The position numbers and the translations under genes are program-made. 30,351 nucleotides of DNA from an uncultured Verrucomicrobiota bacterium. Its GTDB lineage: Bacteria; Verrucomicrobiota; Verrucomicrobiia; Limisphaerales; UBA1096. This document shows positions 78 to 29,788 of this stretch, piece after piece. Where the stretch lies: positions 1 to 30,351 of the forward strand of contig CAJXAU010000001.1 in NCBI GenBank assembly GCA_913050205.1, given 5' to 3'. Positions within the stretch are counted from its first letter, which is position 1. Every line of letters begins with the position of its first letter. The notes below the pieces were generated by a model. The model was not told the origin of the DNA. It saw nothing but the letters and a program-made list of their open reading frames with translations, and made no database searches.

Positions 78-337
78 GAGTCAAAAAAATTGGTTTTCTG
101 GTCGCAAATCTCCCTTATCCGCTGGCCTTCTGCGACCCGTCGGCCAAAACGAGGCGCGGAAATTTACCAAAGAGAACTTCGATTTCCACAAAAAAATCAG
201 GTTTTTTTCATTTATTTTGCCCTCTGCATAATAGCCCGATTTGAAGGGTTTGCGCTTGGCCAAGCGGAATTTCGTGACCGCGCTTGGCCAAGTTGGTAGC
301 TTCCGCCCCTTGCGGGCATGGCCAAGCGCTCGCGGTT

Positions 338-1432
338 ATGAACAATTCCGTCTCCCTCTTTACCCGATTTGCCATCGCGATTCTTACCGGATCGGCGATG
401 TTGATTATCGGTTGCTCTGATACCCCCACGAACACTTCACCGAAGACTTCCCAAACTCAGCCCGCTGAAAACCAGCCCGAGATTCAACCCAGAGAGTTCG
501 ATTCAAAGAACATGGTCTGGATACCGGGAGGCACTTTCGCGATGGGGTCCGACGATGAAAAGGAGGACGAACGCCCGATTCACGAGGTCACTGTGAACGG
601 GTTTTGGATGGACAAAACCGAGGTCACCAACCGGCAGTTCGCCGAGTTTGTGAAGGAGACCAAGTATGAGACCGTGGCAGAGCAAAAACCGAATCCGCTG
701 GATTTCCCCGGTGTTCCAGCTGATAAACTGGTGCCCGGTGCCGTGGTGTTTTCCCCTCCACCGGGAAATGTGCCTCTCAACAATCATCGTGCCTGGTGGA
801 TCTGGCAGCAGGGCGCCGACTGGAGGCACCCAAACGGCCCGGACGACTCAATCGAGGGTATGGAGGAACACCCTGTCGTAAACGTCTGCTGGTTTGATGC
901 CGTCGCCTACGCTGATTGGATGACAAAGCGCACCGGGGTGAAACACCGGCTGCCCACCGAAGCGGAATGGGAGTTTGCCGCCCGTGGTGGACTCGATCGC
1001 AAAAAATACATCTGGGGGGAGGAACTCAAGCCAGACGAGAAGTGCATCGCGAATTTTTGGCAGGGCCGATTCCCAAACCAAAACACTACAGAGGATGGCT
1101 ATCGTATGTCGGCCCCGGTGGGGCAGTTCGCCGCCAATGGCTACGGGTTATACGACATGGCCGGAAACGTCTGGGAATGGTGCATGGACTGGTACCGGGC
1201 AGATTATTACAAGAAGAGTCCGAAGGATAATCCAAAGGGACCGGCGACCAGCTATGACCCCAACGAACCTACAACGGCTAAACGTATCACCCGGGGTGGC
1301 TCGTTCCTTTGTAGTGAACTATATTGCACTGGTTACCGGCCAGCTGCCCGGATGAAAACCAGCCCGGATACCGGCTTGAGTCACACCGGTTTTCGACTTG
1401 TCGCCGAAGGCAAGGCACCGGAAAAAAAGTAA
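338..1432 (+). CDS. Formylglycine-generating enzyme (FGE/SUMF1) family protein, probable lipoprotein
   Basis: Family motifs F.MGS, EVTNRQF, HPVVNVCWFDA, RLPTEAEWEFAARGG, NGYGLYDMAGNVWEWC and RGGSFLCSELYCTGYRPAAR..GFR. The N-terminal hydrophobic stretch ends in LIIGC (lipobox-like), followed by a Thr/Pro/Gln linker. ATG 338 is preferred over the alternative start at 284; ATG 398 is also possible. Confidence 0.9.
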   Translation: MNNSVSLFTRFAIAILTGSAMLIIGCSDTPTNTSPKTSQTQPAENQPEIQPREFDSKNMVWIPGGTFAMGSDDEKEDERPIHEVTVNGFWMDKTEVTNRQFAEFVKETKYETVAEQKPNPLDFPGVPADKLVPGAVVFSPPPGNVPLNNHRAWWIWQQGADWRHPNGPDDSIEGMEEHPVVNVCWFDAVAYADWMTKRTGVKHRLPTEAEWEFAARGGLDRKKYIWGEELKPDEKCIANFWQGRFPNQNTTEDGYRMSAPVGQFAANGYGLYDMAGNVWEWCMDWYRADYYKKSPKDNPKGPATSYDPNEPTTAKRITRGGSFLCSELYCTGYRPAARMKTSPDTGLSHTGFRLVAEGKAPEKK

Positions 1433-1436
1433 GCCA

Positions 1437-1454
1437 AGTGCCTGAGCAGGCACT
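1437..1454. terminator. Hairpin between the convergent FGE and ftsZ stop codons, possible bidirectional terminator
   Basis: AGTGCCT-GAGC-AGGCACT (7-bp stem) fills the 21-bp gap. A T-run follows only at some distance on the minus strand. Confidence 0.45.
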
Positions 1455-2800
1455 CAATTCAACACCATCCCGCGTCGGATGTACGTGGGCTGATCGAGAT
1501 CCTCCCCCTTGTGGATGGTCGGTTCGCTTTTTTCAAAACGCCCCTTGGACACGATTTCCAGCGGGAGCATTTCCTGCGTGATTTTCTTTCGCTTTTTCCG
1601 GTCCGGCTCCTGCCGTGCGGCCGCTTCGAGAAGGCTGTCCTTGAGCTCTGGCGTGATTGCCTCAGCCGTTGGAGCAGGCGGTGTGTAGGCGAAGCCGCTG
1701 CGGCGCGAGCCACCGGAATCCTCCCCCAGTCCGACGTAACTCGTCTCTCCGGATGGCATGAAGGTTTCCGGAAAACTCACGTCGGTCACATCGCTGGACT
1801 GGTTTTCGCTCGGCGCACTCAACTCCGGCTCGGTATCGGACAATTTGAGCTGATGCGCGATTACGACGGTGACCTGCAGTGCCTCGTCACGCCCCGGCCC
1901 GGACGCGCCGACGACCAAATCGACAGCCGAGGCGTGTTGCTTGATTGCCTCGGTGACTGTGTTCATCTCGGAGAGAGACAATGGCTCGCCTCCGGAGAGG
2001 TGTAACAGGATCGCATTGGCCTCCTTCAACGCCTCCCCTCCGCGTGCCGCCGGGTGGGCCAACATTTTTCCCACCGCCGCCGCCGCACGGTCTTCGCCGC
2101 TCCCCTCGACATGAATCACGGAGCCAAGACTCTGCCGTCCCTGCACAGCCGACTGCAGGTCTGCAAACGAGACATTCAACAGACCCGGCTCGAGAAGCAT
2201 CCGGCTCACGCCGAGCACCGATTCGCAAAGGTGGCGATTCGCAATTTCGAGCGCGTTGTTCAGGCTGGTATCGGTACCGGTCATCTGTACGACGTCCTGA
2301 TTTGAAAAATGGAACACCACGTCAGACGCCTGCTTGAGGTCGCGCAGGCCGCCGGTGGCCGTGTTGCATCGGCGGGTGCCCTCACAATCAAACGGCGAGG
2401 CCGCCACCCCCACCACCAGTGCGCCCGTCTCCTTGGCCAAGCGCGCCACAAGCGAGGCCGCACCAGTGCCGGTGCCGCCTCCCATGCCGGCGATGACAAA
2501 TACAAGGTTTGCGCCCTTGACCAGCTTGGCCAAGCGGTCGCGATCCGACTCCACCGCAGCTCGTGCCAACGCCACATCCCCGCCCGTGCCCAGACCGCAG
2601 GGGATCGCTTGGCCAAGCAGTAGCGTCTTGGATTGATGACAGCGTGACAGGCTCCGGTTGTCGGTATCGAGAGAGTACGACTCGACACCTTCCGGGCCAA
2701 TCATCGCAAGGGTCTCAACTAGTTTCACCCCGGTCTCACCCAAGCCGATTAATCGGATGACCGGTTCACCGCCGCTGATATTCGGTTTGTTCTCCGTCAT
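1454..2800 (-). CDS. ftsZ: Cell division protein FtsZ (divergent)
   Basis: Tubulin signature GMGGGTGTGA, GLGTGG, PFDCEG, NVSFAD, G.GEDRA and C-terminal peptide DLDQPTYIRR. ATG at 2800 overlaps the ftsA stop (ATGA). Directly downstream of ftsA. Confidence 0.93.
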   Translation of the reverse strand: MTENKPNISGGEPVIRLIGLGETGVKLVETLAMIGPEGVESYSLDTDNRSLSRCHQSKTLLLGQAIPCGLGTGGDVALARAAVESDRDRLAKLVKGANLVFVIAGMGGGTGTGAASLVARLAKETGALVVGVAASPFDCEGTRRCNTATGGLRDLKQASDVVFHFSNQDVVQMTGTDTSLNNALEIANRHLCESVLGVSRMLLEPGLLNVSFADLQSAVQGRQSLGSVIHVEGSGEDRAAAAVGKMLAHPAARGGEALKEANAILLHLSGGEPLSLSEMNTVTEAIKQHASAVDLVVGASGPGRDEALQVTVVIAHQLKLSDTEPELSAPSENQSSDVTDVSFPETFMPSGETSYVGLGEDSGGSRRSGFAYTPPAPTAEAITPELKDSLLEAAARQEPDRKKRKKITQEMLPLEIVSKGRFEKSEPTIHKGEDLDQPTYIRRGMVLN

Positions 2801-4987: not shown

Positions 4988-5917
4988 TCAAACTGGTTCC
5001 GGTTGTGCCACCTGCCCGGCCGGCTCGAGCGCCAAATTCACGAGCCGCTGGCACAGCTCCACAAAACTCATTCCCGCCGCCCTCGCGGCCTTGGGCAACA
5101 AACTGGTTTCCGTCATGCCGGGCAGCGTATTGATTTCCAGCAAAACCGGCTCTCCGCTGTCACGCACGATAAAGTCCACCCGCACATAACTCCCCCCACC
5201 CACGGCTGCCAGCGCCTGGACAGCCGCATCCTGAATTCGCGCCGTAGTGGCTTCATCAAACTCAGCGGGGCAGATGTACTCCGTGGCACCTGTGGTGTAC
5301 TTGTTCGTGTAATCATACGCCCCTCTCTTTGGCCGGATCTCCACCACTGGCAGAAGCTCGCCGCCCACAATGCCAACCGTGACCTCGCGGCCTACGATTT
5401 TTTCCTCCACCAAAACCGGCCCACCATGGGTCATTGCCTTGGCCAAGCCGCTTGGCCAAGCGGCAACATCATCCACAAATTCCAGACCAATACTCGACCC
5501 CTGAGTCGCCGGTTTAAGCACCAGCGGGAGTGTCAAACCAAGCGGAAGTCCAGCGCCCTCCTCTTCGATCACAAAGTCGTTGGCCAAAGCCAAGCCTCGG
5601 CCCGCGCATGCCCGCTTGGTTAGCACTTTGTCAAACGCCAAGCGGCTCACCGCAGCACTGCACCCGGTGTACGGCATGCCAAGCGCATCCAACTCGGATT
5701 GCACCGAGCCGTCCTCCCCGTACGTACCGTGCAACGCGAGAAAGACCACGTCCACATTTGGCGGGAGTTGAAAGGTTCCATCTGCTGGATCCACCTCGGT
5801 CACCCGATGCCCGATCTCTCGCAGCGCACCCGCGACCGCAGCACCCGACCGCAGCGAAACCTCCCGTTCCGGAGATGGCCCGCCCAGCATCACGCAGATA
5901 TCAATCGCCTCATTCAT
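4988..5917 (-). CDS. ddl: D-alanine--D-alanine ligase
   Basis: GGPSPEREVSLRSG, LHGTYGEDG, KPATQGSSIG, YDYTNKY, RVDF and LEINTLPGMT. Confidence 0.97.
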   Translation of the reverse strand: MNEAIDICVMLGGPSPEREVSLRSGAAVAGALREIGHRVTEVDPADGTFQLPPNVDVVFLALHGTYGEDGSVQSELDALGMPYTGCSAAVSRLAFDKVLTKRACAGRGLALANDFVIEEEGAGLPLGLTLPLVLKPATQGSSIGLEFVDDVAAWPSGLAKAMTHGGPVLVEEKIVGREVTVGIVGGELLPVVEIRPKRGAYDYTNKYTTGATEYICPAEFDEATTARIQDAAVQALAAVGGGSYVRVDFIVRDSGEPVLLEINTLPGMTETSLLPKAARAAGMSFVELCQRLVNLALEPAGQVAQPEPV

Positions 5918-6863: not shown

Positions 6864-8017
6864 GCCGCCACCTCCTTCGGCTTGGCAACAGGAATGTACA
6901 AATCATCCTCCGACGAATTCTCCCACTGGCACACGTCGTAAATCCGCTGGACCACCTCTTCCGTCGCCTGATCCGCCTTCCACTGGCGCATCGCCTCCGA
7001 CATCGACTTGAGCTTGTTCGGTTTACGGAACAATTCCCTTAGCTGCACGAGGAGCAACTTGGAGGTCAATTGCTTTTGGTGGAAACAACGCGCCGCGCCC
7101 ATCTCGACGAACGTCCGCGCATTCAGCCTCTGGTGATCGTCCACGGCGGAAGGGTACGGCACGAGGATGGCCGGCAGTTCCATCGCAGAAAACTCTGCCA
7201 GCGACGATGCTCCGGACCGGCTCACCGCCAGATCCGCCGCACCAAGCGCATACTCCATTTCGGTCAAAAATGGACGCACCACGGCCCGCAAGCCAAGCGC
7301 ATCATAAGCCGCCCGCACCGGTTCCAGTTCGCGGTTACCGGTGAGGTGAATGAACTGCAATTTCGGCAGCGACTTGGCCAAGCGCGGCAGCGCGCCGAGG
7401 ATCGCCCGGTTAATCGACTCCGCGCCCTGGCTTCCGCCCATCACAAGCAACACCGGTTGGTCGTCCGCCAGACCGAGCACTGTCCGTGCGTCTGGCTTGG
7501 GCACCGGCTCCATCGTGGCTCGTACTGGCATCCCGGTTTTACGCACGTCGGTACCGGACACCTGCGACATGGCATCGGGAAACTGCACAAACACCTCGTC
7601 TGCCAGCGGCGACAACATCTTCACTGCACGCCCCGGAACGGCGTTGGCCTCGTGCAGGAATATTTTTGCACCCATCATCTTTCCGGCGATCACCGGCGGC
7701 GCGCTGGTAAAACCACCCATAGCGAGTACGACCGAAGGACGCTGCTCACGGAAGAGTTTGCGGCAACGACCAAGCGATTGAAAAAAACGGAAGGCAAACT
7801 TGGGCAGGTTGCCGGACAGCCCCACCACCGGCAACGGCTCAACATCCATTCCGTAGGCGGACTTGACCGCGGTCTGGTCGACTTCCTTCGGACTGACCAA
7901 AAGCGTGACTTCACACCCTCTCGCCACGAGCGCATCCCCCACGGCGATCCCCGGGAACAGGTGCCCACCGGTTCCTCCGCAGGCAATGGCAACGCGCTTG
8001 GCCAAGGGTTTATCCAT
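6860..8017 (-). CDS. murG: Undecaprenyldiphospho-muramoylpentapeptide N-acetylglucosaminyltransferase
   Basis: GGTGGHLFPG, HEANAVPG, GGSQGA, RSGASSLAE and VPYP...DHQRLNA. The start could instead be TTG at 8023, overlapping the ftsW stop. Confidence 0.96.
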   Translation of the reverse strand: MDKPLAKRVAIACGGTGGHLFPGIAVGDALVARGCEVTLLVSPKEVDQTAVKSAYGMDVEPLPVVGLSGNLPKFAFRFFQSLGRCRKLFREQRPSVVLAMGGFTSAPPVIAGKMMGAKIFLHEANAVPGRAVKMLSPLADEVFVQFPDAMSQVSGTDVRKTGMPVRATMEPVPKPDARTVLGLADDQPVLLVMGGSQGAESINRAILGALPRLAKSLPKLQFIHLTGNRELEPVRAAYDALGLRAVVRPFLTEMEYALGAADLAVSRSGASSLAEFSAMELPAILVPYPSAVDDHQRLNARTFVEMGAARCFHQKQLTSKLLLVQLRELFRKPNKLKSMSEAMRQWKADQATEEVVQRIYDVCQWENSSEDDLYIPVAKPKEVAA

Positions 8018-8019
8018 CG

Positions 8020-9153: not shown

Positions 9154-9168
9154 AAAAGATGCTTCGAC

Positions 9169-9939
9169 CTATTCTGCTTCAGCCGGCTTGGGAATGATCA
9201 ACTTTTGACCCGGACGAATGTTGGAAGTTTTCAGGCCGTTCGCATCCCTGATCTCCTTGACGGTGGTCTTGTGATTCTTCGCGATGGTGTACAGGTTGTC
9301 ACCCGCCTTAACCTCGTACTGCGTTGCCCCCTCCGGTACGGCCGGAGCCGCCGGCTCTGGCGCCTTCGCAGGAATAACCAGCACTTGGCCAATCGCGATG
9401 CGGTTCGGATCCACCGCCGGGTTGGCCTCCTTCAATGCCGTTACGGAGACTCCATGCTTCCTTGCGATCGCAGTGTAGTTGTCCCCCTTTACCACGACAT
9501 ATTCGGATTGGCCGGTGGCAACCGGCACTTCGAGGCCTGTGCTTGGCTCGGGCACCAGCGGCACCACGTCCTCCACATTCTCCGGCTCACCCGTGCCCGG
9601 AATCTGAACCTCCGGCGGTGTTGGCAATGGCGGAGTCGTGGTGATGACTTCGTTTGTTGGCACCGGCGCCGGTGGCGGTTCCACCACGGTCACAGTATTG
9701 GTCGAAGCCGGAGCCGGCGGTGTCGCCACTTCTCCCATCGGCGGCAGCGTGGCGATGGGGTTTGTGTCACCGGTCGTTGTCGTCTGGGATTCTTCCCGAC
9801 TACATCCGGAAAACAGTAGTCCACCAAGAAAAACGACATGCACAGCCACGATGATCATCACCATCTGAAGACCGGACCGATTCTTGGTATTTTTTTCGAG
9901 CAACGAACTCTTGGGTTGCAATGGATTTTGCCTAGACAT
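9169..9939 (-). CDS. Membrane-anchored protein with a Pro/Thr-rich linker and two C-terminal LysM domains
   Basis: N-terminal hydrophobic helix ending LLFSGC. LysM repeats YVVVKGDNYTAIARKHGVS...NP...GQVLVIP and YEVKAGDNLYTIAKNH...N.L....IRPGQKLIIP. AAGGAG ribosome-binding site upstream. Confidence 0.92.
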   Translation of the reverse strand: MSRQNPLQPKSSLLEKNTKNRSGLQMVMIIVAVHVVFLGGLLFSGCSREESQTTTTGDTNPIATLPPMGEVATPPAPASTNTVTVVEPPPAPVPTNEVITTTPPLPTPPEVQIPGTGEPENVEDVVPLVPEPSTGLEVPVATGQSEYVVVKGDNYTAIARKHGVSVTALKEANPAVDPNRIAIGQVLVIPAKAPEPAAPAVPEGATQYEVKAGDNLYTIAKNHKTTVKEIRDANGLKTSNIRPGQKLIIPKPAEAE

Positions 9940-10005
9940 GATTATTTAACACTCCTTGTATTTTTGTTGAAAAAATGACGCTTGGCCAAGCGCATTTGGG
10001 GGGGA

Positions 10006-11484: not shown

Positions 11485-11492
11485 TCCCTAAT

Positions 11493-19799: not shown

Positions 19800-20497
19800 A
19801 ACCGCAACGCCCATTTGTGTTGATAAACATGGCGATGACAGCTGATGGGAAAATTGCGCCACCACATCGCCGCTTTGCCCCGATCGGCAGCCGCCGCGAC
19901 CACGACAATCTTCTCAGGCTACGCACCACTGTGGATGCCGTGATGTGCGGTGCAAGGACGGTGGAGTCCGGTAACATCACGATGGATGCTGGTGGAGCCC
20001 GATACGAACGTCAACGCTTGGCCAAGCGCTTAAACCGACAAAACCTAAGAGTGCTTGTCAGTGGTTCCGGTTCGGTCGATCCGGGTGCCGCCATATTCAA
20101 ATCCCGAATTTCACCCATCCTCATTTTTGTCTCAAGCCAAGCCCCGGCCAAGCGCTTGGCCAAGCTCAAGGCTGTTGCGGATGAGGTGATCGTTTGCGGC
20201 GCCAAGTCGGTAGCGCTTGGCCAGGCGCTTGGCCGCCTGCGCCGCGACTGGAACGTAAAACGCCTCCTTTGCGAAGGAGGCGGTGAGTTGAATTTCGAGC
20301 TGCTCCGGCTTGGCCTTGTCGACGAATTGCACCTGACGATTTGCCCCCGATTGATCGGCGGACGGGATGCCCCGACTATCGCGGACGGTGCCGGTTTTCA
20401 GCGCTTGGCCAAGGCCGCAAAACTGGAGCCGGTTGCCCAGCGGCGTACAGGTGACGAGCTGTTTACGACATGGCGCGTCAGGCCAGAATCTCGTTGA
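19796..20497 (+). CDS. RibD C-terminal / pyrimidine reductase (DHFR-fold) family protein
   Basis: [30 protein letters not shown] and [16 protein letters not shown]. No deaminase domain. ATGA overlap with queA. Confidence 0.85.
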
Positions 20498-21922: not shown

Positions 21923-24886
21923 TTACTCCTTGGTTAAAACTTCGTCGAGATTGAGAATGGCACTGGCCACGGTCGTCCACGCGGCGTGCTGGGCCATGTC
22001 GACCGATTCGTCGCGCTTGGCCTCGCCAAATTTGAGTAGTTCCTCCGCCCGTTTTTTGTCGGCGGTGAACTCTTTGAGCTGGCTGTCGTAAAGATCGCGG
22101 AACACGCGTTTGCGCAGGTCGTCGGCAGGACGCGAGGTCGTCAACAGGAAGGCGTAGTCGAGCTGCGAATCAAAGTCCGGCCCGCCCTGCTGCAGCACGC
22201 GCTGCGCGAACACCCTCGCGGCCTCGACAAACTGCACGTCGTTCATCGTCACCAACGCCTGCATTGGCGTGTTGGTGCGAGGCCGCTGGATCACGCACTT
22301 CTCACGAGTCGGCGCATCAAACGCCACCATGTTCGGCATCGGCGCAGAGCGTTTCCAGTAGGTGTACATCGAGCGACGGTACAGTTTCTGGTCGTTGTCG
22401 CGCTTGTAAAAAAGCCCACCGTTGAGTGCGACCTCGTTCCAGATGCGCGGCGGCTGATACGGCTTCACGCTTGGCCCACCGATCTGGCCGTTTAGAATGC
22501 CGCTCACCGAAAGGGCGTTGTCGCGGATGAACTCTCCCTGCAACCGAAAACGCGGCGCGCGGGAGAGGTAAATATTCTGAGGATCTTGCTCCAGTTTTTC
22601 ACGAGTCGCAGCGGACACCTGGCGGTACGTGGCCGACATGAGCATCTGCTTGAGGATGCGTTTCACATTCCAGCCGCTGTCGGCAAAGTCGCGCGACAAA
22701 TAATCCAATAGACCCGGGTGGCTTGGCAGCGCGCCGCGTGTACCAAAGTCGGCCACCGTGCTAACCAGTCCGGAGCCGAACAGCATGGCCCAGTAACGAT
22801 TCACTGCCACGCGGGATGTCAGCGGGTGGTCGTCGTCGGTGAGCCACTTGGCCAAGCTCAACCGTTTTTGCGGAGCGTCCTTGGGAAGGGACGGCAACAC
22901 CTTGGGCACGTTCGGGAAAATCTCCTGATCCTTGATCGGCGAGGCGTAGTGACCACGGTTAAGCACGTAGGTTTTGCGCGGCTTGGCCAAGTCGCCCATC
23001 GTCATCACAGTGACGATGCCGTTGTTGTAGTCGTTGACCGATTTCTCGGCCGCCTTGATTTTTTCGTCCAACTGCTTGGCCAAGGGCCAGACGGACTTTT
23101 CATAATACTCCCGCAGCTTGGCCACGTGCTCTTCGCTCAAGACGTCCTGGCCAAGGTTCGCCAACACCTCCTGTGGCAGACTCGACCCGCCGAGTTTGAA
23201 ATACATTCCTCCCTGACCACCATTGTTGACGATCTTGATCAGCAGATGATTGTCGCCCTTGGCCAGATTCAACTCCGCCTTTTCCTGATCGGCGGCCGGC
23301 CCGCGGTTGGCATTGTTTGCCAGGATTTGTTTGCCGTTGAGGAAAACCTTGATGCCGTCGTCGCTGCCCAGAGACACACCCACCTTCTGGGCGTTCGGCG
23401 ACTTCACCGTGCGATAAAAATAGGACGCACTCTTCTCAGGCAAACCGATGGTGTGCACCTTGCCATCCTCATACTTGCGGGCCTCCCACTTTTTGCCGCC
23501 GTATTCCTTTTTCAAATCAACCCCTTTTTCCGGGCCAAAATCCTTGTTGAACGCCTCGTTGCTGTCCTTCGCGCCAAAACTGCCGAGGAATTGCCAACCG
23601 CCGAGTTCCGGCGGGTGCGGCACTTCGTCCACGCGATTGTCAGCGATCCATTCGTCCATCTCCTTCAACGTCGGCTTGGCCTTGGCCCGCTCCGCCTTGG
23701 CCAGTTCCACCGCCGCACGGCGGTTCTCCAGTTCCCGGTTTTGCATCATGGTCGGCACCTTGATCATCGGCGCAGAATTTCCGTTGCGCGTCTGCATTCC
23801 CTTGTCCGAGTTAATGTTGAAGTAGGCGTAAAACTGATAGTACTCCTTCTGCGAAATGGGATCGTACTTGTGGTCGTGGCACTGCGCGCATTCCATCGTC
23901 AAACCAAGCCAGACGTTGGAGGTCGTTTTGACCCGATCGACGTTATATTCCACCCGGTACTCTTCGGCGATCGCCCCGCCCTCGTCGGTCGTGCCGTGGT
24001 TGCGATTAAACCCGGAGGCCACTTTTTGCGCGAGCGTGGCATTCTCCAGTTGATCGCCGGCCAACTGCTCGATGGTAAACTCGTCGAATCGTTTGTTGTC
24101 GTTGTAGGCGTCGATCGTCCAGTCGCGCCATGGCCACATGAAACGCACACCGTCATCATGATACACACTCGAGTCGCCGTATCGTGCAGCATCCATCCAC
24201 GCCAACGCCATCCGCTCTCCGTACCGTTCACTGGCCAGCAATGAATCGACCAGTTTTTCGTAGGCGTTCGGGTCGGTATCGTTCACGAACCGCTCCACCT
24301 CCTCCGGTGACGGCGGCAGGCCGGTCAGGTCAAAGCACACCCGACGAATCAACGTGCGACGATCCGCCTCCTTCGACGGCTTCAATCCCTGCTGCTCCAT
24401 CTTCGCGAGCGTGTAAAAATCGATCGAGTTCTTCGGCCAAGCCTTCTTCTGCACCTTGGGCAGGTTGGGCGTCTTCGGAGTCACGAATGCCCAGTGATCC
24501 TCCCATGCCGCACCCTGTGTGATCCATCGCTCAATTAGTGCAATCTCCTCAGCGGACATCTCCAGTTTGCTCTCCGGCGGAGGCATCAAGTCGTCCTTAT
24601 CGTGGGCCGTAATACGCTGGAAAAGCAGACTCTCTTTCGGTTTGCCGGGAGCGACAATCCGATCCTCGCCCTCTCCGCTGAATAACCCATCGCGTGTGTC
24701 CAGTCGCAGGTCGGCCTTGCGATGTTCCTCGTCCGGCCCGTGACACTGCACACAGTAGTGGGACAACACCGGGCGCACATCGATACCGAATCGCACCTCT
24801 CCCGGCTGGGCTGCCTGCGCTTGGCCAAGCGCAATCACTGCGGCCAAAGGCATCAGCAAACTAATCCGTTGGATAAAAAACATCAT
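21923..24886 (-). CDS. PSCyt1/DUF1549/DUF1553 planctomycete-type cytochrome c domain protein
   Basis: Signal peptide; CxxCH motifs CVQCHGPD and [11 protein letters not shown]; [38 protein letters not shown] and NTP.QAL..MND. Confidence 0.9.
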
Positions 24887-25005: not shown

Positions 25006-27603
25006 TTATTTGGTGCGAAATGCCCGGCTATCGATTAGGGAGAAAAACAGGTCTCCGAATTGGTTTTTTTCTAGCTCGTTTTCTCGGACTAACTGGGCGA
25101 TTTCCCTTCGCTCCACATAGCTCAAGGGCCGGCCTGTGGCATACACCAACAGCTTCTCTGCAAGGCACTTGGAAAAGTCATCGATGTTGCCCACAACCCA
25201 TTTTTTAAGGTCGAGGATACCGTTTATTTTTGTCCCGTCCGGGAGCATCCCGGATGGGTTGATCTCGCTCCCCTGTTCCATCACCCGCTGACCTTTTTCG
25301 TTCTTTTTGAAAACCGGATAGTGTTCCCGCCAGCGGCCCACTGGATCGAAATTCTCAAGCGCCAAACCGATCGGGTCGATTTTTTTGTGACATACATTGC
25401 AGCTGGCATCCGCGGTGTGGGCCTTGAGTTGCTCCCGAATCGTGTTTGCCCCAGTCGTGTCAGGCGTGATCGCCGGGACCGAATCCGGTGGTGGCGGTGG
25501 CGGGTTGCCCAAAATATTTTCCAGCACCCAGACTCCACGCACCACAGGCTGGGTGTGAACCCCGTTGGCAGTGGCTGCCAGCACGGCCGCTTGGCCAAGC
25601 AGCCCCCCATGCCGGCCGCCGCGCTGCAAGGCAACCCGCTGCAACGCGTCGGTGTCCTTCAGGCCTTCGTCGATCCCATAAATTTTCTTGGCGATGGCAG
25701 CGGTAGTGATGGTGAAGTCGGGATCGATAAAATCAGTCATCGGCCGATTCTCCCTGAGCATGGTCTCGAAGAAACGCTCTGACTCGCGCCGGGCCAACTG
25801 CAGTTCCGCTTGGCCAAGCGCAAGGCGCGCATCCGGCATGAGGTGTTCGAGCCTGCGCGTGTCGAGCCACTGCCCCACGAAATGCTCCACAAACGCTGCG
25901 GACGATTTGGCCCGAAGCAGCCGCTTGGCCTGCTGCCGTAGTTCATCATCACGCAACAACGCCCCGGAGCTCGCACTGGCCAACAGTTCGGCATCCGGCG
26001 GGGCGCTCGTCAAAAAATAGGCCAGACGGCTCGCGAGATCGTGTGCGTCTAGTTCGCCCGGCTCGAGAGCACGGTATAGAAATTGCGGTGAGATGAGCAT
26101 CGTGCGGATGGCCAGATGAACTCCCTCGTTAAACGTGTGGCCTTGGCCAAGGTGTTCGCGCATTAGTTGCCAGTAGGCATCGACGTCCCGGTTGGTCGGC
26201 GGCTTGCGATTCACCCGCGAAAGTAACTGGCGCAATACATCCCGGGCGTGGGCCTCCTCACTACGGTCGCCACGGTCACCGATCAGTTTGGCCTGCAGTT
26301 CCCGGCGGCGTTTTTCCGCGGGACTCTCGATGACCCTGAGCGGGCCTTCGATGATGGTGCGATGAATGTCGAGTCCCGGCCCGTCCTCAAAGTGCTCGTA
26401 CGAGATCGTGTCGATATAGAGCACCGGATCCTTGAGCATTTCTTTGATGAGTTTTTCCGTGTCGGGGTGATCCATCGTCGCTCTGGACAGGTCGAGATCT
26501 TCACGGGCCAAATGCTTTTTGATGCGCCGCCAGCCGATGCCTCCGCGAATCGGGTTACCGAGTTTCACCTGTTGCCACGCAGCGAGCAGGCGCGGCTTGG
26601 CCTTGAACTTTGCGCGAAGCATCTGCTCGTAGGCCGGCTTGTCACCGCGGTCGCCGTCCAGCGGCGCATTTGCGAAGTAAAAAACAATCGTGTCGCCCTT
26701 GTGCAGTTCGGCCACAAATTCAAACTCGGCCGGTGATTGTCGAGACACCTCGACTGCATGAAGCAGACGCAGACTCGGGACTTTTACATCATCGCTTTGC
26801 GACACCGGCTTGGCCCGGAGTTCAAGTCTCATTGGCTGGTCGTGCTCCGGTTTAAACGCAGAGAGGCTCATCCTCACCCGGTACGTGCCGGAGGTGTGCA
26901 CTTCGAATTTGCTTGGCCAAGTGCAGCTGCGCATCACCGGGTCGTGCTTGGTCACCAGTCGCATGGCGCCGCCACGGATGCTGCTCGCAGAGTAACTGAT
27001 CGCCATGTCTTCCGGCTCGACCACCACGGTCTCGCGCTTGGCCAAGCGCCGGTTTGGCAGAATAATCCGGTCGGCCACATCCGCCGCAGCGAGGGTGTAG
27101 GCCTCCAGTAGCGGAGGAGACAGGATGAGTGATTCGCCGATGTTATCGAATCCGTGCCGCTCAACATCTGGCGGAAAACTGTCCGGCAATTCGAACCCGA
27201 TGCCGAAAATTGAGCGGATGCTGTTTCGATACTCTGCGCGGTTGAGCCTGCGCGCCACCGTACCGCCCACCGGGGAGTGTCGTGTCAATTGCGTGTCCAG
27301 CCAGGCAACAAACGACTCACGCTCCACGCCGAACGGTTGCCGTTTTTTTGCGGGCGGCATTTCCCCGGCGGCAAGCACGTTCATGACACGCTCCCAATGG
27401 TTGCGGACAGTCGCGCGGCTCCAGTCAATCTCGGAAGCCTCGAGCACCACACCACCCTTGCCAGTGTCGGTGTCGTGACAGTCGAGACAGTACGCGTTGA
27501 GAAATTCCGCCGGGGCTCGGGGTATAGGTTCAGCACCCTGCGCCGTGCCAAAAAGAGCGCAACCGAAGAGGACAAACAGCAACCGAAAACCACCGCCGAT
27601 CAT
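25006..27603 (-). CDS. DUF1592/DUF1588/DUF1587/DUF1595/DUF1585 planctomycete-type cytochrome c domain protein
   Basis: Signal peptide; CLDCHD and CNVCHKKIDPIGLALENFD; RRLNRAEYRN, LISPQFLYR, LASRLAYFL...PD, FVGQWL and T.PVVRGVWVLENILG. Confidence 0.9.
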   Translation of the reverse strand: MIGGGFRLLFVLFGCALFGTAQGAEPIPRAPAEFLNAYCLDCHDTDTGKGGVVLEASEIDWSRATVRNHWERVMNVLAAGEMPPAKKRQPFGVERESFVAWLDTQLTRHSPVGGTVARRLNRAEYRNSIRSIFGIGFELPDSFPPDVERHGFDNIGESLILSPPLLEAYTLAAADVADRIILPNRRLAKRETVVVEPEDMAISYSASSIRGGAMRLVTKHDPVMRSCTWPSKFEVHTSGTYRVRMSLSAFKPEHDQPMRLELRAKPVSQSDDVKVPSLRLLHAVEVSRQSPAEFEFVAELHKGDTIVFYFANAPLDGDRGDKPAYEQMLRAKFKAKPRLLAAWQQVKLGNPIRGGIGWRRIKKHLAREDLDLSRATMDHPDTEKLIKEMLKDPVLYIDTISYEHFEDGPGLDIHRTIIEGPLRVIESPAEKRRRELQAKLIGDRGDRSEEAHARDVLRQLLSRVNRKPPTNRDVDAYWQLMREHLGQGHTFNEGVHLAIRTMLISPQFLYRALEPGELDAHDLASRLAYFLTSAPPDAELLASASSGALLRDDELRQQAKRLLRAKSSAAFVEHFVGQWLDTRRLEHLMPDARLALGQAELQLARRESERFFETMLRENRPMTDFIDPDFTITTAAIAKKIYGIDEGLKDTDALQRVALQRGGRHGGLLGQAAVLAATANGVHTQPVVRGVWVLENILGNPPPPPPDSVPAITPDTTGANTIREQLKAHTADASCNVCHKKIDPIGLALENFDPVGRWREHYPVFKKNEKGQRVMEQGSEINPSGMLPDGTKINGILDLKKWVVGNIDDFSKCLAEKLLVYATGRPLSYVERREIAQLVRENELEKNQFGDLFFSLIDSRAFRTK

Positions 27604-27608: not shown

Positions 27609-28865
27609 CTAGGAAAACAGTTCGTTGAGGTTGCGCTTGGCGTTGGAGAATCGATCCACCTCCATACCCATTTGCTGCATTAGCGTGATGTACAGGTCGC
27701 CCAGCAACGGCGCGCCATCCGCCTTGGGGTCAATCGCAACGTGGCTACCGTGCCGGAAACCGCCACCCGCCACCACGGTTGGCAGGTCATTGTTCGTGTG
27801 GTCGCTCGCGTTGCCCATGCCGGTGCCCATCATCACGATCGTGCTATCCAGCAACGGGCGCCCCTCGGCATCGGTCTTGGCCTTGAGTTGCGAAATGAAA
27901 TTCTCGAGACATTTCATATGCTCCACCTCCACGCGAACGAGATCCTGAATTTTCTCCCCGTCATTTCCGTGGTGCGACAGCGCATGGTAACCAGCCTGTA
28001 ACGTCTCGCCACCGATCGTGAACACCTGCCCCAGCCCGGCGAGGAACATCGTCATCACTCGTGTCGAATCCGTCTCCAGCGCCAATGCCATCAAGTCGTA
28101 CATCAACTGCTCCGCCTCTATCATCAGGTTCGGCGCGATCGGGTCGTAGCCCGGCAGTTTGTAGTCCGTCTTGGGCAGCGGCAGGTCAATCCCGTTCAAC
28201 TGGCGGGTCATCCGTTTTTCCACCTCGCGTACGGAGCCGAAATACTCGTCCAACTTGTGTCGATCACGGGCAGACACCCTGCCCTGCAGTCGCTTGGCTT
28301 CGTTCCGAACAAGGTCCAGCGAACTTCGCCCGCTTTTGAGCAGGTACTCCGTGTGCGCCCGATCTGCCGCCGAGGCGAACAGTTTATTATAAAAAACAGA
28401 CGGCCGCTGGATCATCGGCAGTGCCACCCCGTCATGATTGTAACTCATGAACCGGCTCGCTTGGCCTGCCGTGAGTTGGATCGACTCGAATCGAGTCGCT
28501 TGGCCAAGCGCACGCGCAACAATCTGGTCCAGAGACACCTTGCCAACCTTTTGGCCGCAAAGGTAGTTCGCCCACTCGCCATGGCCATGCTTGGCCCGGT
28601 GGTCGAGTCCGGAGAAAATCGTGAAATCACCGCGATGGCCGGCCAAGGGCTGAAGCGTCTGCGACATCGTGTAGCCGCGCCCGGTTTCCTTCGGGTAGAT
28701 GGCTTCCTGATGAAAACCGAGATAACCGCCCACGCAAACCAAGCGCTTGGCCTTGGCCCCACCAGACGCAGCACCCAGCACAGGCACCGACTCCAGCATC
28801 GGAAGCGCCAGCGACACTCCGGTTGCCTTCAGGAAACGACGTCGATCAGTCTTGTTCTCCAGCAT
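27609..28865 (-). CDS. DUF1552 (HXXSHH) family protein, probable Tat substrate
   Basis: RRRFLK...LALPMLES signal, SLDQIVA, D.YF.SVREVEKR, LALETDSTRV.T, HALSHH and LLDSTIV..GTGM...H...DLP.VVAGG. GGAG ribosome-binding site before ATG 28865. Confidence 0.9.
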   Translation of the reverse strand: MLENKTDRRRFLKATGVSLALPMLESVPVLGAASGGAKAKRLVCVGGYLGFHQEAIYPKETGRGYTMSQTLQPLAGHRGDFTIFSGLDHRAKHGHGEWANYLCGQKVGKVSLDQIVARALGQATRFESIQLTAGQASRFMSYNHDGVALPMIQRPSVFYNKLFASAADRAHTEYLLKSGRSSLDLVRNEAKRLQGRVSARDRHKLDEYFGSVREVEKRMTRQLNGIDLPLPKTDYKLPGYDPIAPNLMIEAEQLMYDLMALALETDSTRVMTMFLAGLGQVFTIGGETLQAGYHALSHHGNDGEKIQDLVRVEVEHMKCLENFISQLKAKTDAEGRPLLDSTIVMMGTGMGNASDHTNNDLPTVVAGGGFRHGSHVAIDPKADGAPLLGDLYITLMQQMGMEVDRFSNAKRNLNELFS

Positions 28866-28924
28866 ACGCAAACTCCTTGGTCGCGCGGATCATCCCCCTC
28901 CCGGCCGGTAACGTCAAACCGCGA

Positions 28925-29635
28925 TTACTCATTTTCAACCCCAAACAATCGGTTGAATTCAGCACGAATGTTGTCGTGTAATTCCTGCTCCCAAACGATC
29001 CCGGGAATCTCGATGCGCTTGGATTTCATACGCATGTCATAAGGTGAAATTACGGCTGTGACGTTCAGCTTCCCGACCTCGGAAACCATCAGGAACAACT
29101 CCTCAATCCCGGCGTCGCCAATCGGTATGCAACCGATAGTTGCCGAGCCGCCGTGAATGAAAATATCGAACCCCAAACGATCACGACCATCAGCCTTGCC
29201 CTTGGCCTTGTCGAATGCATTGGGGTAATTCAACTTCATCGACAGGTGAAACTGGCTGTTCGGGTTGAGGTATTCGATCGCGTAAATCCCCTCCGGAATC
29301 TGCCCGTCCCCCTCCCGCAACTTCGGCCCCGGGCCACCACTGAACCCGGTGATCGGGTAACGCTTAATCAATTCCAATTCGCCCGATTTTAGTCGCCCCC
29401 ATACTTCCAGCATTCGCTCCTCCTTTAACCCGAGTAAAACCAGTTCACTCCACTTGCCAGAATCAAATGCGAACGGACGATCGAAACGGATCTCCGTAAC
29501 CGCCTGCTCGACCGACTTAGCTCCCGTCAGTTTCACCCAGACCGGCCGCCAAGCCGATTTACCGAAATAATAAAACGACAGCCCCGCCAACAGCAGGACG
29601 AAAAACCAAGCCGACTTGTTTTTAAACACTGTCAC
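28925..29635 (-). CDS. L,D-transpeptidase (YkuD) family protein of the YafK/DpaA-like type
   Basis: N-terminal transmembrane helix; GPKLREGDGQIPEGIY, NPNSQFHLSMKLNYPN and the catalytic IFIHGGSATIGC motif (His...Cys). Confidence 0.87.
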   Translation of the reverse strand: MTVFKNKSAWFFVLLLAGLSFYYFGKSAWRPVWVKLTGAKSVEQAVTEIRFDRPFAFDSGKWSELVLLGLKEERMLEVWGRLKSGELELIKRYPITGFSGGPGPKLREGDGQIPEGIYAIEYLNPNSQFHLSMKLNYPNAFDKAKGKADGRDRLGFDIFIHGGSATIGCIPIGDAGIEELFLMVSEVGKLNVTAVISPYDMRMKSKRIEIPGIVWEQELHDNIRAEFNRLFGVENE

Positions 29636-29788
29636 TTCCGCTCATCGATGGATTTCACGCCGCGATACCTCAGAATACGCCGAGAAGCCGAATCCAAATG
29701 CCAGCCTAAGGACGGCTGATACCACTTCCATCTGCAGCGCACCTTGTTCGGCGATCGGTACTTACCACCCGCTTGGCCAAGCGGAGGG

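What the first reader, a model, noticed from the sequence alone, without database searches (positions are those of the whole stretch)
253..29784. Highly iterated palindrome CGCTTGGCCAAGCG at about one copy per kb: a HIP-like DNA signal outside cyanobacteria
Seen in sequence: about 32 exact CTTGGCCAAG, about 19 GCTTGGCCAAGC and 10 CGCTTGGCCAAGCG in 30 kb (hand counts). The longest perfect copies are 18 bp (24816-24833) and 16 bp (27034-27049, 29769-29784). Assuming ~60% GC, chance gives about 0.04 copies of the 10-mer and about 0.0003 of the 14-mer. Established: short palindromes are usually avoided in bacteria. Densities like this are known for cyanobacterial HIP1 (GCGATCGC) and for the non-palindromic Neisseria/Pasteurellaceae uptake sequences. 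Nucleoid sites such as matS, SlmA sites, Noc boxes and parS are far sparser. I do not recognise this motif from any described system. Inference: it is a lineage-specific, genome-wide cis signal. Candidate roles are a methyltransferase-linked HIP (the core contains GGCC and TGGCCA), a nucleoid-protein binding site, or an uptake or recombination signal.
Basis: partly seen in the sequence, partly recalled or inferred. Interest (0 to 1): 0.92.

Follow-up and report, generated by a model that had tools for sequence, protein, structure and literature searches.

The report
Palindromic DNA-uptake-like word in marine Verrucomicrobiota
A 10-16 bp palindrome written about once per kilobase into the genomes of one marine Verrucomicrobiota genus fades away in exactly those lineages that deleted their DNA-uptake (competence) genes, so it is most likely a new, palindromic kind of 'self' tag for natural transformation.

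Summary
The window holds 32 CTTGGCCAAG, 19 12-mers and 10 CGCTTGGCCAAGCG. The whole 2.35-Mb MAG holds 2216 cores (0.94/kb) in 447 of 462 contigs.

The motif survives an amino-acid- and codon-preserving null (1738 observed vs 75 expected in CDS). It occurs in all three frames, distorts the proteome (RLAKR 223 vs 1.1), arises by point substitution and is conserved about 10-fold above background.

All 26 species of the genus (= family) carry it, at 0.012-0.94/kb. Other families of the order do not.

New here:
- No DNA methyltransferase class or Vsr tracks the motif.
- The seven lowest-density genomes are exactly the seven that lack ComEC, DprA, ComM and ComF (0/28 detections vs about 77% in the other 19).
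- A rooted tree and synteny show three independent, gene-precise deletions. Relic and 'ghost' copies show decay afterwards.
- Copies are phased at about 10.5 bp, so duplex DNA is being read.

Best reading (about 0.5): a palindromic, methylase-independent uptake or transformation signal. It resembles DUS/USS and the recent HIP1 hypothesis, in a new phylum.

The scan had already met this palindrome in other marine Verrucomicrobiota genomes (e1-4649003, e1-4883867, e1-2304994). The competence link is the new element. No function has been tested experimentally.

The parts
253..266 (.). 14-bp palindrome CGCTTGGCCAAGCG, intergenic, upstream of the FGE-sulfatase gene
283..292 (.). 10-bp core CTTGGCCAAG at the start of the FGE-sulfatase ORF; 28 bp from the previous copy
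2432..2441 (.). core in ftsZ, frame xxC TTG GCC AAG (LAK)
2524..2535 (.). 12-bp palindrome in ftsZ (LAK frame)
2607..2618 (.). 12-bp palindrome in ftsZ, frame CTT GGC CAA G (LGQ)
5438..5447 (.). core in ddl (LAK frame); shared by 8 of 11 aligned motif-rich species
5447..5464 (.). 18-bp palindrome GCCGCTTGGCCAAGCGGC in ddl (Trp frame), 13 bp from the previous core; core shared by 11 of 11 motif-rich species
7373..7382 (.). core in murG (LAK frame); shared by 8 of 11 species
7997..8006 (.). core in murG (LAK frame)
9979..9992 (.). 14-bp palindrome in the intergenic gap between murD and the LysM gene; shared by 9 of 11 species
11294..11307 (.). 14-bp palindrome GGCTTGGCCAAGCC in murD (LAK frame)
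11328..11339 (.). 12-bp palindrome in murD (LAK frame), followed by CGCTTG (start of the 12-bp lattice); shared by 11 of 11 species
13859..13868 (.). core in murF (LGQ frame)
13934..13945 (.). 12-bp palindrome in murF (LAK frame)
15601..15612 (.). 12-bp palindrome in ftsI (LAK frame)
17021..17043 (.). two cores exactly 12 bp apart in rsmH/mraW (tandem lattice CTTGGCCAAGxGCTTGGCCAAGC), both in the LAK frame
18820..18837 (.). 18-bp palindrome AGCGCTTGGCCAAGCGCT in queA (LAK frame)
20015..20028 (.). 14-bp palindrome in ORF 19796-20497 (LAK frame)
20154..20165 (.). 12-bp palindrome in ORF 19796-20497
20404..20413 (.). core in ORF 19796-20497
22847..22856 (.). core in the PSCyt/PSD1 gene (LAK frame)
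22982..22991 (.). core in the PSCyt/PSD1 gene (LAK frame)
23075..23084 (.). core in the PSCyt/PSD1 gene (LAK frame); 93 bp from the previous copy, a helical-phase peak
24816..24833 (.). 18-bp palindrome TGCGCTTGGCCAAGCGCA near the 5' end of the PSCyt/PSD1 gene (LGQ frame)
25589..25600 (.). 12-bp palindrome in the PSD/PSCyt3 gene (LGQ frame)
25807..25820 (.). 14-bp palindrome in the PSD/PSCyt3 gene (LGQ frame)
26141..26152 (.). 12-bp palindrome CCTTGGCCAAGG in the PSD/PSCyt3 gene
26912..26921 (.). core in the PSD/PSCyt3 gene, rare Trp frame (xCT TGG CCA AGx)
27034..27049 (.). 16-bp palindrome GCGCTTGGCCAAGCGC in the PSD/PSCyt3 gene (full consensus)
28497..28510 (.). 14-bp palindrome in the DUF1552 gene (LGQ frame)
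29769..29784 (.). 16-bp palindrome CCGCTTGGCCAAGCGG in ORF 29632-30030

Best explanation
The palindrome (G/C)CGCTTGGCCAAGCG(C/G) is a genus-wide 'self' word tied to natural transformation. It most likely acts as a DNA uptake signal, analogous to the DUS of Neisseriaceae and the USS of Pasteurellaceae. Proposed mechanism, with status of each step:

1. A two-fold-symmetric receptor of the uptake apparatus binds the palindrome on duplex DNA. The symmetry and the 10.5-bp phasing are shown.
2. DNA fragments carrying the word are taken up preferentially and recombined through ComEC, ComF, DprA, ComM and RecA. This is inferred.
3. Point mutations that create or complete a copy are therefore transmitted preferentially (molecular drive), and copies are restored when they decay. 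The word thus accumulates to about one per kb wherever proteins tolerate it: the LAK and LGQ frames, intergenic DNA, and especially just after stop codons. Origin by substitution, the frame bias, the proteome distortion and the excess conservation are all shown.
4. When a lineage deletes the competence genes the drive stops. The word then decays by ordinary AT-biased mutation into one-mismatch 'ghosts' and finally a few relics, and genomic GC falls. Shown as a correlation in three independent lineages; causality is inferred.

The motif-rich genomes contain essentially no DNA methyltransferase, so recognition does not appear to depend on methylation.
For: DNA-level signal: the 10-mer occurs 1738 times in CDS vs 75.5+-8.4 after synonymous-codon shuffling. 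It is in all three frames (921/709/106). Intergenic density is 2.45/kb vs 0.80/kb in coding DNA. Peptides RLAKR (223 vs 1.1) and LGQA (639 vs 19) are inflated, while the reversed controls KAL and QGL are not.

Origin and maintenance: copies arise by substitution without indels. In most species at 72-75% DNA identity, 50-75% of them are conserved (33% in G021), vs 6-8% for ordinary 10-mers. In G000 there are 922 perfect 14-mers, but at most 4 copies of any single change at the three innermost half-site positions.

Distribution: all 26 species of the genus carry it, at 0.012-0.94/kb, vs 1-19 copies of the reversed control word. 16 other families of the order have 0-2 copies of the 14-mer.

Competence link: ComEC is found in 14, DprA in 14, ComM in 15 and ComF in 16 of the 19 higher-density genomes. 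That is about 77% of gene-by-genome combinations, matching their mean completeness of 77%. All four are undetected in the 7 lowest-density genomes: G011, G041, G001, G004, G006, G008 and G024, which are 67-89% complete. That is 0 of 28 detections. The joint probability of missing just three of these genes (ComEC, DprA, ComM) in all seven by incompleteness is about 2.5e-15.

Independence: in the rooted tree the low-GC poor clade is sister (100% support) to the G000 group. G041 and G011 are nested separately in the other clade (100%).

Synteny: the deletions are gene-precise on single contigs. dprA is gone in G041 (flanking ORFs 157 bp apart) and in G011. comEC is gone in G011 (flanks 59 bp apart) and in G008, G001 and G004 (a shared gap of about 550-600 bp), and is replaced in G041. 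The roughly 18 neighbouring ORFs are retained.

Controls: ComEC is present in 38 of 39 other families of the order, so its absence is a derived loss. RecA, secretins and PilB/PilT-type ATPases are retained in the poor genomes tested.

Decay: the ghost-to-perfect ratio rises from 0.33 (G000) to 2.2 (G041) and 3.8-5.4 (low-GC clade), with rho = -0.97 against density. 4 of 5 alignable residual copies in G001 lie exactly where G000 has a perfect copy.

Features shared with DUES: about 1/kb density; a peak of 276 copies within 50 bp after stop codons; convergent intergenic regions densest (4.0/kb); cluster spacing more regular than random (CV 0.54 vs 0.75+-0.035).

Duplex reading: 10.5-bp phasing is coherent beyond 120 bp and is also the strongest period among intergenic pairs.
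Against: - No uptake or transformation experiment exists; these are uncultured marine MAGs.
- The association rests on three loss events, so the phylogenetically independent sample is small.
- I tested about 13 chosen families, not all families, so other genes may share the same 19-vs-7 pattern.
- The most recent loss, G011, shows only a modest effect: 0.29/kb vs 0.38/kb in its sister G002, and a ghost ratio of 1.69 vs 1.63.
- Density varies 3-fold among genomes that keep the genes.
- ComEC, DprA, ComM and ComF are also conserved in bacteria without uptake sequences, including 38 of 39 other families of this order. The genes are therefore at most necessary, and the specificity factor is unidentified.
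- Known uptake sequences are asymmetric words and about half lie in terminators. Here the word is a perfect palindrome, only 19% of stop-proximal copies are followed by a T-run, and the hairpin is weak at -6.9 kcal/mol.
- All MAGs are incomplete (59-93%). ComEC itself was not found in G000, which is 61% complete.
Confidence: 0.5

Rival explanations
1. The signal is linked to transformation but acts after uptake. The palindrome would work on incoming or resident DNA as a recombination-promoting or protective signal: Chi-like, loading DprA/RecA, or protecting against nucleases. Alleles that carry it would then be integrated preferentially. The same molecular drive and the same decay after loss of competence would follow.
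For: All the evidence for co-loss with competence genes applies equally. The four lost genes are the inner-membrane and cytoplasmic part of the pathway, while secretins and pilus ATPases are retained. For HIP1, Kamoku & Nielsen (10.1101/2024.09.10.611283) suggest a Chi-like contribution in addition to uptake or processing.
Against: DNA enters the cytoplasm single-stranded. The 10.5-bp phasing of neighbouring copies is a property of duplex B-DNA, which points to recognition before translocation or on the chromosome. Known Chi-type signals are asymmetric and strand-polar.
Confidence: 0.15
2. The word is the binding site of a cooperative chromosomal (nucleoid-organising) protein unrelated to transformation. 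Sites would be kept by selection for chromosome architecture. The lineages that lost the motif would have lost that protein, and the loss of competence genes would be coincidental or part of a wider change in lifestyle.
For: The perfect two-fold symmetry suits a dimer. Phasing at 10.5 bp is strong, and clusters are regularly spaced at about 1.7 kb. An earlier follow-up in this scan reached this reading for a sister genome (e1-4649003). The loss lineages also changed in GC and have long branches.
Against: It needs three separate coincidences with the loss of four dedicated competence genes. That includes G011, whose GC (0.576) is unchanged and whose branch is short. In G041, 32 kb around the two loci is otherwise collinear, with only dprA and comEC missing, so there is no general gene decay. 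No candidate protein is known. Described nucleoid sites such as matS, SlmA-binding sites, Noc boxes and parS are far sparser (from my own knowledge).
Confidence: 0.2
3. It is a methyltransferase- or repair-linked HIP. An orphan methyltransferase recognising GGCC or TGGCCA, with very-short-patch-type repair or methyl-dependent recognition, would create and maintain the word, as proposed for cyanobacterial HIP1.
For: The core contains GGCC and TGGCCA. HIP1 is recognised by DmtA and DmtC and boosts transformation only when methylated. Centre G>A/C>T ghosts are the commonest core ghosts in G041 (9 per 9 perfect 12-mers).
Against: PF00145 is found in only 2 of 26 genomes (one rich, one poor), Vsr in 1 of 26 and PF01555 in 1 of 26 (a poor genome). 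PF02384 and PF02086 are found only in poor genomes among the 5 tested. The richest genome, G000, has almost no centre-transition ghosts: 35 per 2216 perfect 10-mers.
Confidence: 0.05
4. It is a miniature mobile or selfish repeat (REP/MITE-like, or spread by a homing enzyme), or a mutational or codon-usage by-product.
For: Tandem copies sit exactly 12 bp apart (87 pairs), and intergenic DNA is enriched.
Against: There is no conserved sequence beyond 16 bp. 78% of copies lie inside genes. Orthologous alignments show gain by substitution without indels. The enrichment survives the codon-preserving null 23-fold. 399 of 435 copies of the permuted palindrome simply abut a main core.
Confidence: 0.02

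Closest known systems
[quoted passage not shown]
   Same: It is a short word at about 1 per kb genome-wide. It is present in genes in preferred reading frames and distorts the proteome (Findlay & Redfield, PMC2817400). It is enriched in intergenic DNA and directly downstream of genes, more evenly spaced than random, and accumulates by point mutation rather than transposition. It is specific to a lineage, and here its abundance is tied to the presence of the competence genes.
   Different: The word is a perfect palindrome, not an asymmetric word. The phylum is Verrucomicrobiota rather than Proteobacteria; DUES are described only for those two families (10.1101/2025.10.24.684340). Only 19% of stop-proximal copies look terminator-like, against about half for DUES. 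No dialects were seen in the three species sampled. The receptor is unknown (ComP in Neisseria; ComN predicted in Pasteurellaceae). Uptake preference is untested. From my own memory, the half-site shares the hexamer CAAGCG with the Apl-type USS ACAAGCGGT; this is probably coincidence.
HIP1 (GCGATCGC) and alternate highly iterated palindromes of cyanobacteria
   Same: It is a hyper-abundant palindrome in both coding and non-coding DNA. It is conserved beyond codon constraints and has a quasi-periodic distribution (PMC5861425). HIP1 was recently proposed to be a DNA-uptake recognition sequence, on the basis of a phylogenetic correlation with type IV pilus and competence proteins (PMC13756078).
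   Different: HIP1 is recognised by orphan methylases (DmtA, DmtC) and enhances transformation only when methylated (10.1101/2024.09.10.611283). Here the motif-rich genomes lack all four major DNA methyltransferase families. The word is longer (10-16 bp vs 8 bp) and the phylum differs. The correlated genes here are ComEC, DprA, ComM and ComF, and the evidence includes gene-precise deletions, not only correlations with pilus components.
REP/BIME elements and their RAYT transposases
   Same: Both are abundant short palindromic repeats with intergenic enrichment.
   Different: REPs are imperfect 20-40 bp palindromes confined to intergenic DNA and spread as units. This word is mostly intragenic, arises base by base, and has no conserved flanks.

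Membership tests
DUS/USS (DNA uptake enhancing sequences) | Short specific word hyper-abundant across the whole genome (order of 1 per kb) | tested here: met
   2216 cores in 2.35 Mb, 447 of 462 contigs; top k-mer of the genome
DUS/USS (DNA uptake enhancing sequences) | Accumulates in place by point mutation and is maintained above neutral expectation, including inside genes | tested here: met
   Orthologous alignments show substitutions and no indels; mostly 50-75% conserved vs 6-8% background; codon-preserving null exceeded 23-fold
DUS/USS (DNA uptake enhancing sequences) | Occurs in a naturally competent lineage, and abundance depends on the transformation machinery | tested here: met
   By comparative genomics only: ComEC, DprA, ComM and ComF are undetected in exactly the 7 lowest-density genomes; three independent gene-precise deletions. 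Competence itself has not been demonstrated.
DUS/USS (DNA uptake enhancing sequences) | DNA carrying the word is taken up or transforms preferentially | not testable with these tools
   Needs uptake or transformation assays; the organisms are uncultured
DUS/USS (DNA uptake enhancing sequences) | Cognate sequence-specific receptor (ComP-type minor pilin or equivalent) | not tested
   Secretins, PilB/PilT-type ATPases and HHH_3 proteins are present but not differential; no receptor candidate identified
DUS/USS (DNA uptake enhancing sequences) | Frequent placement as hairpins in intrinsic terminators | tested here: inconclusive
   Sharp peak 0-50 bp after stop codons and highest density in convergent spacers, but only 19% are followed by TTTT and the hairpin is -6.9 kcal/mol
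HIP1-type highly iterated palindromes | Perfect palindrome hyper-abundant in coding and non-coding DNA, conserved, quasi-periodic | tested here: met
HIP1-type highly iterated palindromes | Cognate orphan DNA methyltransferases that recognise sequences within the palindrome | tested here: not met
   PF00145 in 2/26, PF01555 in 1/26, PF03852 (Vsr) in 1/26; PF02384 and PF02086 absent from the rich genomes tested. An unknown methylase family cannot be excluded.
REP/MITE-type mobile palindromic repeats | Intergenic unit with conserved flanks that spreads by insertion | tested here: not met
   No conservation beyond 16 bp; 78% of copies intragenic; no indels at orthologous sites
Polar chromosome motifs (Chi, KOPS) and sparse nucleoid sites (matS, parS, Noc/SlmA boxes) | Asymmetric strand-skewed word, or tens of sites per genome | tested here: not met
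   The word is its own reverse complement and occurs 2216 times

The most novel reading that the evidence does not exclude
This is the first uptake-sequence system outside Proteobacteria. It is palindromic and independent of methylation, and is read on duplex DNA by a symmetric receptor. It also offers a natural experiment: three lineages that deleted comEC, dprA, comM and comF show successive stages of decay of the word, from 0.29 to 0.13 to 0.02 per kb. In the two older cases genomic GC has also fallen, from about 57-66% to 53% and then 41-43%. That would tie the loss of transformation directly to base-composition evolution and would support the idea that HIP-like palindromes in general are transformation 'self' tags.
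Probability: 0.45. Interest if true: 0.9.

Novelty: new variant of a known kind. Interest (0 to 1): 0.82.

Why it matters
Sequence-specific DNA uptake is established in only two proteobacterial families, and the function of cyanobacterial HIP1 has been debated for 30 years. This element combines the anatomy of HIP1 (a perfect, phased, hyper-abundant palindrome) with the comparative signature expected of an uptake sequence: it decays wherever the transformation genes are deleted. It does so in an unrelated phylum and without methyltransferases.

If this reading is right, three things follow:
- 'Self' tagging for transformation has evolved repeatedly and can be symmetric.
- It gives a clean phylogenetic framework (19 keepers, three independent losers) in which to find the receptor by gene profiling.
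- It supplies natural time points for measuring how fast such words decay and how the loss of transformation affects GC content.

It also has a practical use. The word is a compact marker for binning and tracking this abundant marine clade, and a candidate tool for making its members genetically tractable.

Tried and rejected
- **Methyltransferase/VSP-repair origin:** searched PF00145, PF03852 and PF01555 across the genus, and PF02384 and PF02086 in five contrasting genomes. None tracks the motif.
- **Deamination signature in G000:** centre transitions are rare, 35 per 2216.
- **Half-site CCAAGCG as the true unit:** rejected. 60% of half-sites sit in the full core, and 399 of 435 copies of the permuted palindrome CCAAGCGCTTGG abut a core. 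That palindrome is a by-product of 12-bp tandem copies.
- **Alternative 'dialect' words in low-density species:** none. G001 and G008 have no iterated word, and G041, G011 and G017 have the same consensus.
- **Motif-free stretches as foreign islands:** the longest gaps encode ordinary genes (FlhA/FlhB, a NuoG-like protein, TRAP/ABC transporters, a TonB receptor). Some have low GC and none is an obvious mobile element, so this is not informative.
- **Phage test:** the 14-mer occurs only once per listed viral contig, about chance level.
- **ComEA-type HHH_3 domain, secretin and T2SSE ATPases:** present in rich and poor genomes alike, so not discriminating.
- **Prediction of extra decay in G011 relative to its sister G002:** only weakly met.
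- **The search for related loci with FtsW:** returned only distant relatives at 55-60% identity. It was used to name the outgroups as Verrucomicrobiae/Limisphaerales.
- **Literature search for the word itself:** found nothing relevant.
- **The look-up of sequencing runs:** unavailable, so read support and population polymorphism were not examined.

Full report
**1. Observation.** The counts are exact. The window has 32 CTTGGCCAAG, against 0.06 expected from dinucleotide-preserving shuffles. It has 19 GCTTGGCCAAGC and 10 CGCTTGGCCAAGCG, against 0.00 expected. Two further 18-bp ones, at 5447-5464 and 18820-18837, were overlooked.

The window is a dcw cell-division and cell-wall cluster: ftsZ, ftsA, ftsQ, ddl, murB, murG, ftsW, murD, mraY, murF, ftsI and rsmH. 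It also carries queA and Planctomycete-type DUF1501, PSCyt and PSD genes. The nearest named relatives are Verrucomicrobiae/Limisphaerales MAGs. Identical proteins occur in Tara Oceans and other marine assemblies.

**2. Genome-wide status and null models.** The assembly holding the window is 2.35 Mb in 462 contigs, 57.4% GC and 61% complete. It has 2216 cores (0.94/kb), 1360 12-mers and 922 14-mers, and 447 of 462 contigs carry at least one copy. The commonest 8-, 10- and 12-mers of the genome are all sub-words of the motif.

I made crude gene calls and shuffled synonymous codons within each gene, which keeps every protein and its codon usage. This gives 75.5+-8.4 cores in CDS against 1738 observed, and 7.2+-2.2 14-mers against 613.

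The force acts on DNA, not on protein. All three frames are used: xxC TTG GCC AAG 921 times, CTT GGC CAA G 709 times, and the Trp-requiring frame 106 times. Intergenic DNA is three times denser than coding DNA, 2.45 vs 0.80/kb. The proteome is visibly bent: LAK 1566 vs 334, RLAKR 223 vs 1.1, LGQA 639 vs 19 and AWPS 78 vs 3.4. The reversed peptides KAL and QGL are at or below expectation.

**3. Anatomy.**
- Information is highest in the 10-bp core and falls off symmetrically to (G/C)CG...CG(C/G). Nothing is conserved beyond 16 bp.
- In G000 the core is almost never mismatched. There are 922 perfect 14-mers but at most 4 copies of any single change at the three innermost half-site positions.
- The second palindrome, CCAAGCGCTTGG (435 copies), is a by-product. 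399 copies abut a main core, and 87 pairs of cores lie exactly 12 bp apart.
- Copies peak sharply in the first 50 bp after stop codons: 276, against about 45-90 per 50-bp bin inside genes. Density is 4.0/kb in convergent spacers, 2.4 in tandem spacers and 1.7 in divergent spacers.
- Stop-proximal copies are more complete (CG flanks in about 90%), but only 19% are followed by a T-run and the hairpin is weak at -6.9 kcal/mol. Most are not classical terminators.
- Spacing is bimodal. Copies form clusters, and the clusters are more evenly spaced than random: mean 1.7 kb, CV 0.54 vs 0.75+-0.035 in simulations.
- Within clusters, pair distances have a dominant period of about 10.5 bp. Its power is 887, against 187 for the codon period and about 10-35 for the unrelated control periods tested. 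It is coherent beyond 120 bp and is also the strongest period among intergenic pairs. This confirms a claim made by an earlier follow-up on a sister genome (e1-4649003). It means duplex DNA is read from one face.

**4. Origin and maintenance.** I aligned the dcw region from 14 species of the genus. Copies arise by point substitution at sites that already resembled the word. There are no indels and no inserted units. Some sites are shared by 11 of 11 motif-rich species, and others are gained or lost in single lineages. In most species at 72-75% DNA identity, 50-75% of G000's copies are conserved (33% in G021). Only 6-8% of ordinary 10-mers are. Conservation stays high, roughly 40-75%, whatever the divergence. 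That fits a set of tolerant positions that are continually restored.

**5. Distribution.** The 14-mer is absent or at chance level (0-2 copies) in 16 other families of the order. The family consists of this single genus, 26 species, and all of them carry the core well above the reversed control. The range is very wide: 0.29-0.94/kb in 20 species, 0.13/kb in G041, and 0.012-0.023/kb in G001, G004, G006, G008 and G024.

The poorest species have much lower GC, 41-43%, and G041 has 52.7%. Composition alone explains only about a 2-fold drop. They have no alternative iterated word, and lower-density species use the same consensus, so there are no dialects.

I built a rooted maximum-likelihood tree from nine dcw proteins. 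It places the low-GC clade as sister (100% support) to the G000/G003/G018/G005/G012 group. G041 and G011 sit separately inside the other major clade, which also has 100% support. The high-density state is therefore ancestral, and the low densities are secondary. In line with this, 4 of the 5 residual G001 copies that could be aligned to G000 lie exactly where G000 has a perfect copy.

**6. Gene-content tests.** Methyltransferase and repair hypotheses fail. PF00145 is found in 2 of 26 genomes (one rich, one poor). Vsr is found in 1 of 26 and PF01555 in 1 of 26 (a poor genome). PF02384 and PF02086 occur only in poor genomes among the five tested. Motif-rich genomes are essentially free of DNA methyltransferases.

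The four dedicated transformation genes, in contrast, track the motif perfectly:

| Gene | Found among the 19 higher-density genomes | Found among the 7 lowest-density genomes |
|---|---|---|
| ComEC (PF03772) | 14 | 0 |
| DprA (PF02481) | 14 | 0 |
| ComM (PF13335) | 15 | 0 |
| ComF (TIGR00201) | 16 (14 strong) | 0 |

Detection among the 19 is about 77% of gene-by-genome combinations, equal to their mean completeness. The seven genomes with none are G011, G041, G006, G004, G024, G001 and G008.

The absences are real deletions on single contigs:
- **dprA in G041:** the two flanking ORFs are 157 bp apart.
- **dprA in G011:** the flanks are about 530 bp apart, against about 1.56 kb in G010.
- **comEC in G011:** the flanks are 59 bp apart, against 2.5 kb in G010.
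- **comEC in G008, G001 and G004:** all three share the same gap of about 550-600 bp.
- **comEC in G041:** the slot holds a Trypsin-Endonuclease I ORF and a TPR ORF.

In G041 the 32 kb around both loci is otherwise collinear with G010, and the roughly 18 neighbouring ORFs are retained. This is not general gene decay.

ComEC is present in 38 of 39 other families of the order. The losses are therefore derived, while the word is an innovation of this genus. RecA (found in G011, G041 and G001), secretins and PilB/PilT-type ATPases are retained in the poor genomes.

**7. Decay.** I computed the ratio of one-mismatch 'ghosts' to perfect cores, corrected with the reversed-word control. It rises monotonically as density falls (rho = -0.97): 0.33 in G000, about 1 in mid-density species, 1.69 in G011, 2.24 in G041 and 3.8-5.4 in the low-GC clade. 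In G041, core ghosts outnumber perfect 12-mers 2.2 to 1, against 0.12 to 1 in G000, and most are G>A or C>T changes.

One caveat applies. G011's ratio is hardly above that of its sister G002 (1.63). The youngest loss therefore shows only a 24% lower density so far.

**8. Mechanism.** The shown facts are:
- a symmetric, helically phased word on duplex DNA
- gain by substitution
- active maintenance in lineages that have the transformation genes
- decay in three lineages that deleted them
- no methylase

The simplest model is the molecular-drive model developed for uptake sequences, which I know from the work of Redfield and colleagues (see also PMC2817400, PMC7811141). A sequence-specific step of transformation favours fragments that carry the word. 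Mutations creating the word are therefore over-transmitted by recombination until density reaches roughly one per uptake or recombination tract.

The 10.5-bp phasing argues that recognition is of double-stranded DNA. That places it at or before passage through the outer membrane and periplasm, hence 'uptake signal' rather than a cytoplasmic single-strand signal. The fall in GC after loss fits loss of GC-biased gene conversion or selection, but that is inference only.

**9. Comparison with known systems.** DUES are described only for Neisseriaceae and Pasteurellaceae (10.1101/2025.10.24.684340). HIP1 has just been hypothesised to be a cyanobacterial uptake sequence, from correlations with pilus and competence proteins and from methylation-dependent stimulation of transformation (PMC13756078; 10.1101/2024.09.10.611283).

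The present element behaves like a DUES and looks like a HIP. It fails HIP1's methylase criterion, and it differs from DUES in being palindromic and rarely terminator-like. I found no paper that mentions this word. Within this scan, the same palindrome was already reported from other marine Verrucomicrobiota genomes (e1-4649003, e1-4883867, e1-2304994). As far as their summaries show, the competence-gene co-loss, the rooted polarity, the synteny-proven deletions and the decay series are new here.

**10. Limits.**
- All genomes are incomplete MAGs.
- Only three independent loss events exist.
- The families tested were chosen, not exhaustive.
- G024 could not be placed on the tree.
- The gene calls used for frame and spacer statistics are crude: stop positions are exact but start positions are approximate.
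- The viral-contig test was inconclusive.
- Read-level checks were impossible.
- No experiment shows uptake preference.

I therefore give about 0.5 to the uptake-signal reading. Adding the post-uptake variant brings any transformation-linked role to about 0.65. I give about 0.2 to an unrelated chromosomal binding-site function.

Noticed in passing
L161:1131-2576 (G041:C40, the slot where comEC lies in G010): In G041 the comEC position is occupied by a 481-aa ORF that fuses a Trypsin domain to an Endonuclease I domain, followed by a TPR ORF. An extracellular or periplasmic DNase has replaced the DNA-import channel.
   Followed up: partly
genus-wide: Motif-rich genomes have practically no DNA methyltransferase of any major class. 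The motif-poor G008 has at least six hits: two m5C, three N4/N6 (one with internal stops) and one D12. Restriction-modification content seems to run inversely to the 'self' word.
   Followed up: partly
G001, G008 (41-43% GC), G041 (52.7%) vs 55-66% in the others; The two older lineages that lost the competence genes have markedly lower GC and longer branches. The youngest, G011 (57.6%), does not. This suggests the order: gene loss, then motif decay, then GC decline.
   Followed up: partly
window 4988-15934: The dcw cluster runs ftsI-murF-mraY-murD-(LysM protein)-ftsW-murG-murB-ddl. There is no murE between ftsI and murF and no murC between murG and murB. A LysM-domain gene (9169-9939) sits between murD and ftsW. 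Also flagged by first-reader note e1-5295393.
   Followed up: no
G012:C90:9221-9514 and G005:C14:806-901: The ComM hits in G012 and G005 carry an in-frame stop (TAG and TGA respectively) or are fragments. G012 also lacks detectable ComEC and DprA, and its assembly contains N runs. This is either poor assembly or a fourth loss in progress.
   Followed up: no
L178-L187 (G017 sample): A second over-represented 12-mer family, GATGGAGATTTG / ATGGAGATTTGA (19 counts on both strands in 200 kb), appears in G017. It is unrelated to the palindrome and may be a repeat array or a repeated gene.
   Followed up: no
G010:C16:32713-33210, G019:C25:11311-11808, G041:C63:20021-20518, G008:C18:35329-35829: One secretin domain lies in an open frame of about 3900-4300 aa, next to a PilB/PilT-type ATPase and an HHH_3-domain ORF. 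This giant secretin locus is conserved in rich and poor species and could be the outer part of the uptake route.
   Followed up: no
G000:C15:1373-6080 (L167): This is the longest internal motif-free stretch (4.7 kb). Its GC is only 44% and it encodes a DUF7133-HEAT-cytochrome c protein, so it may be recently acquired DNA.
   Followed up: partly
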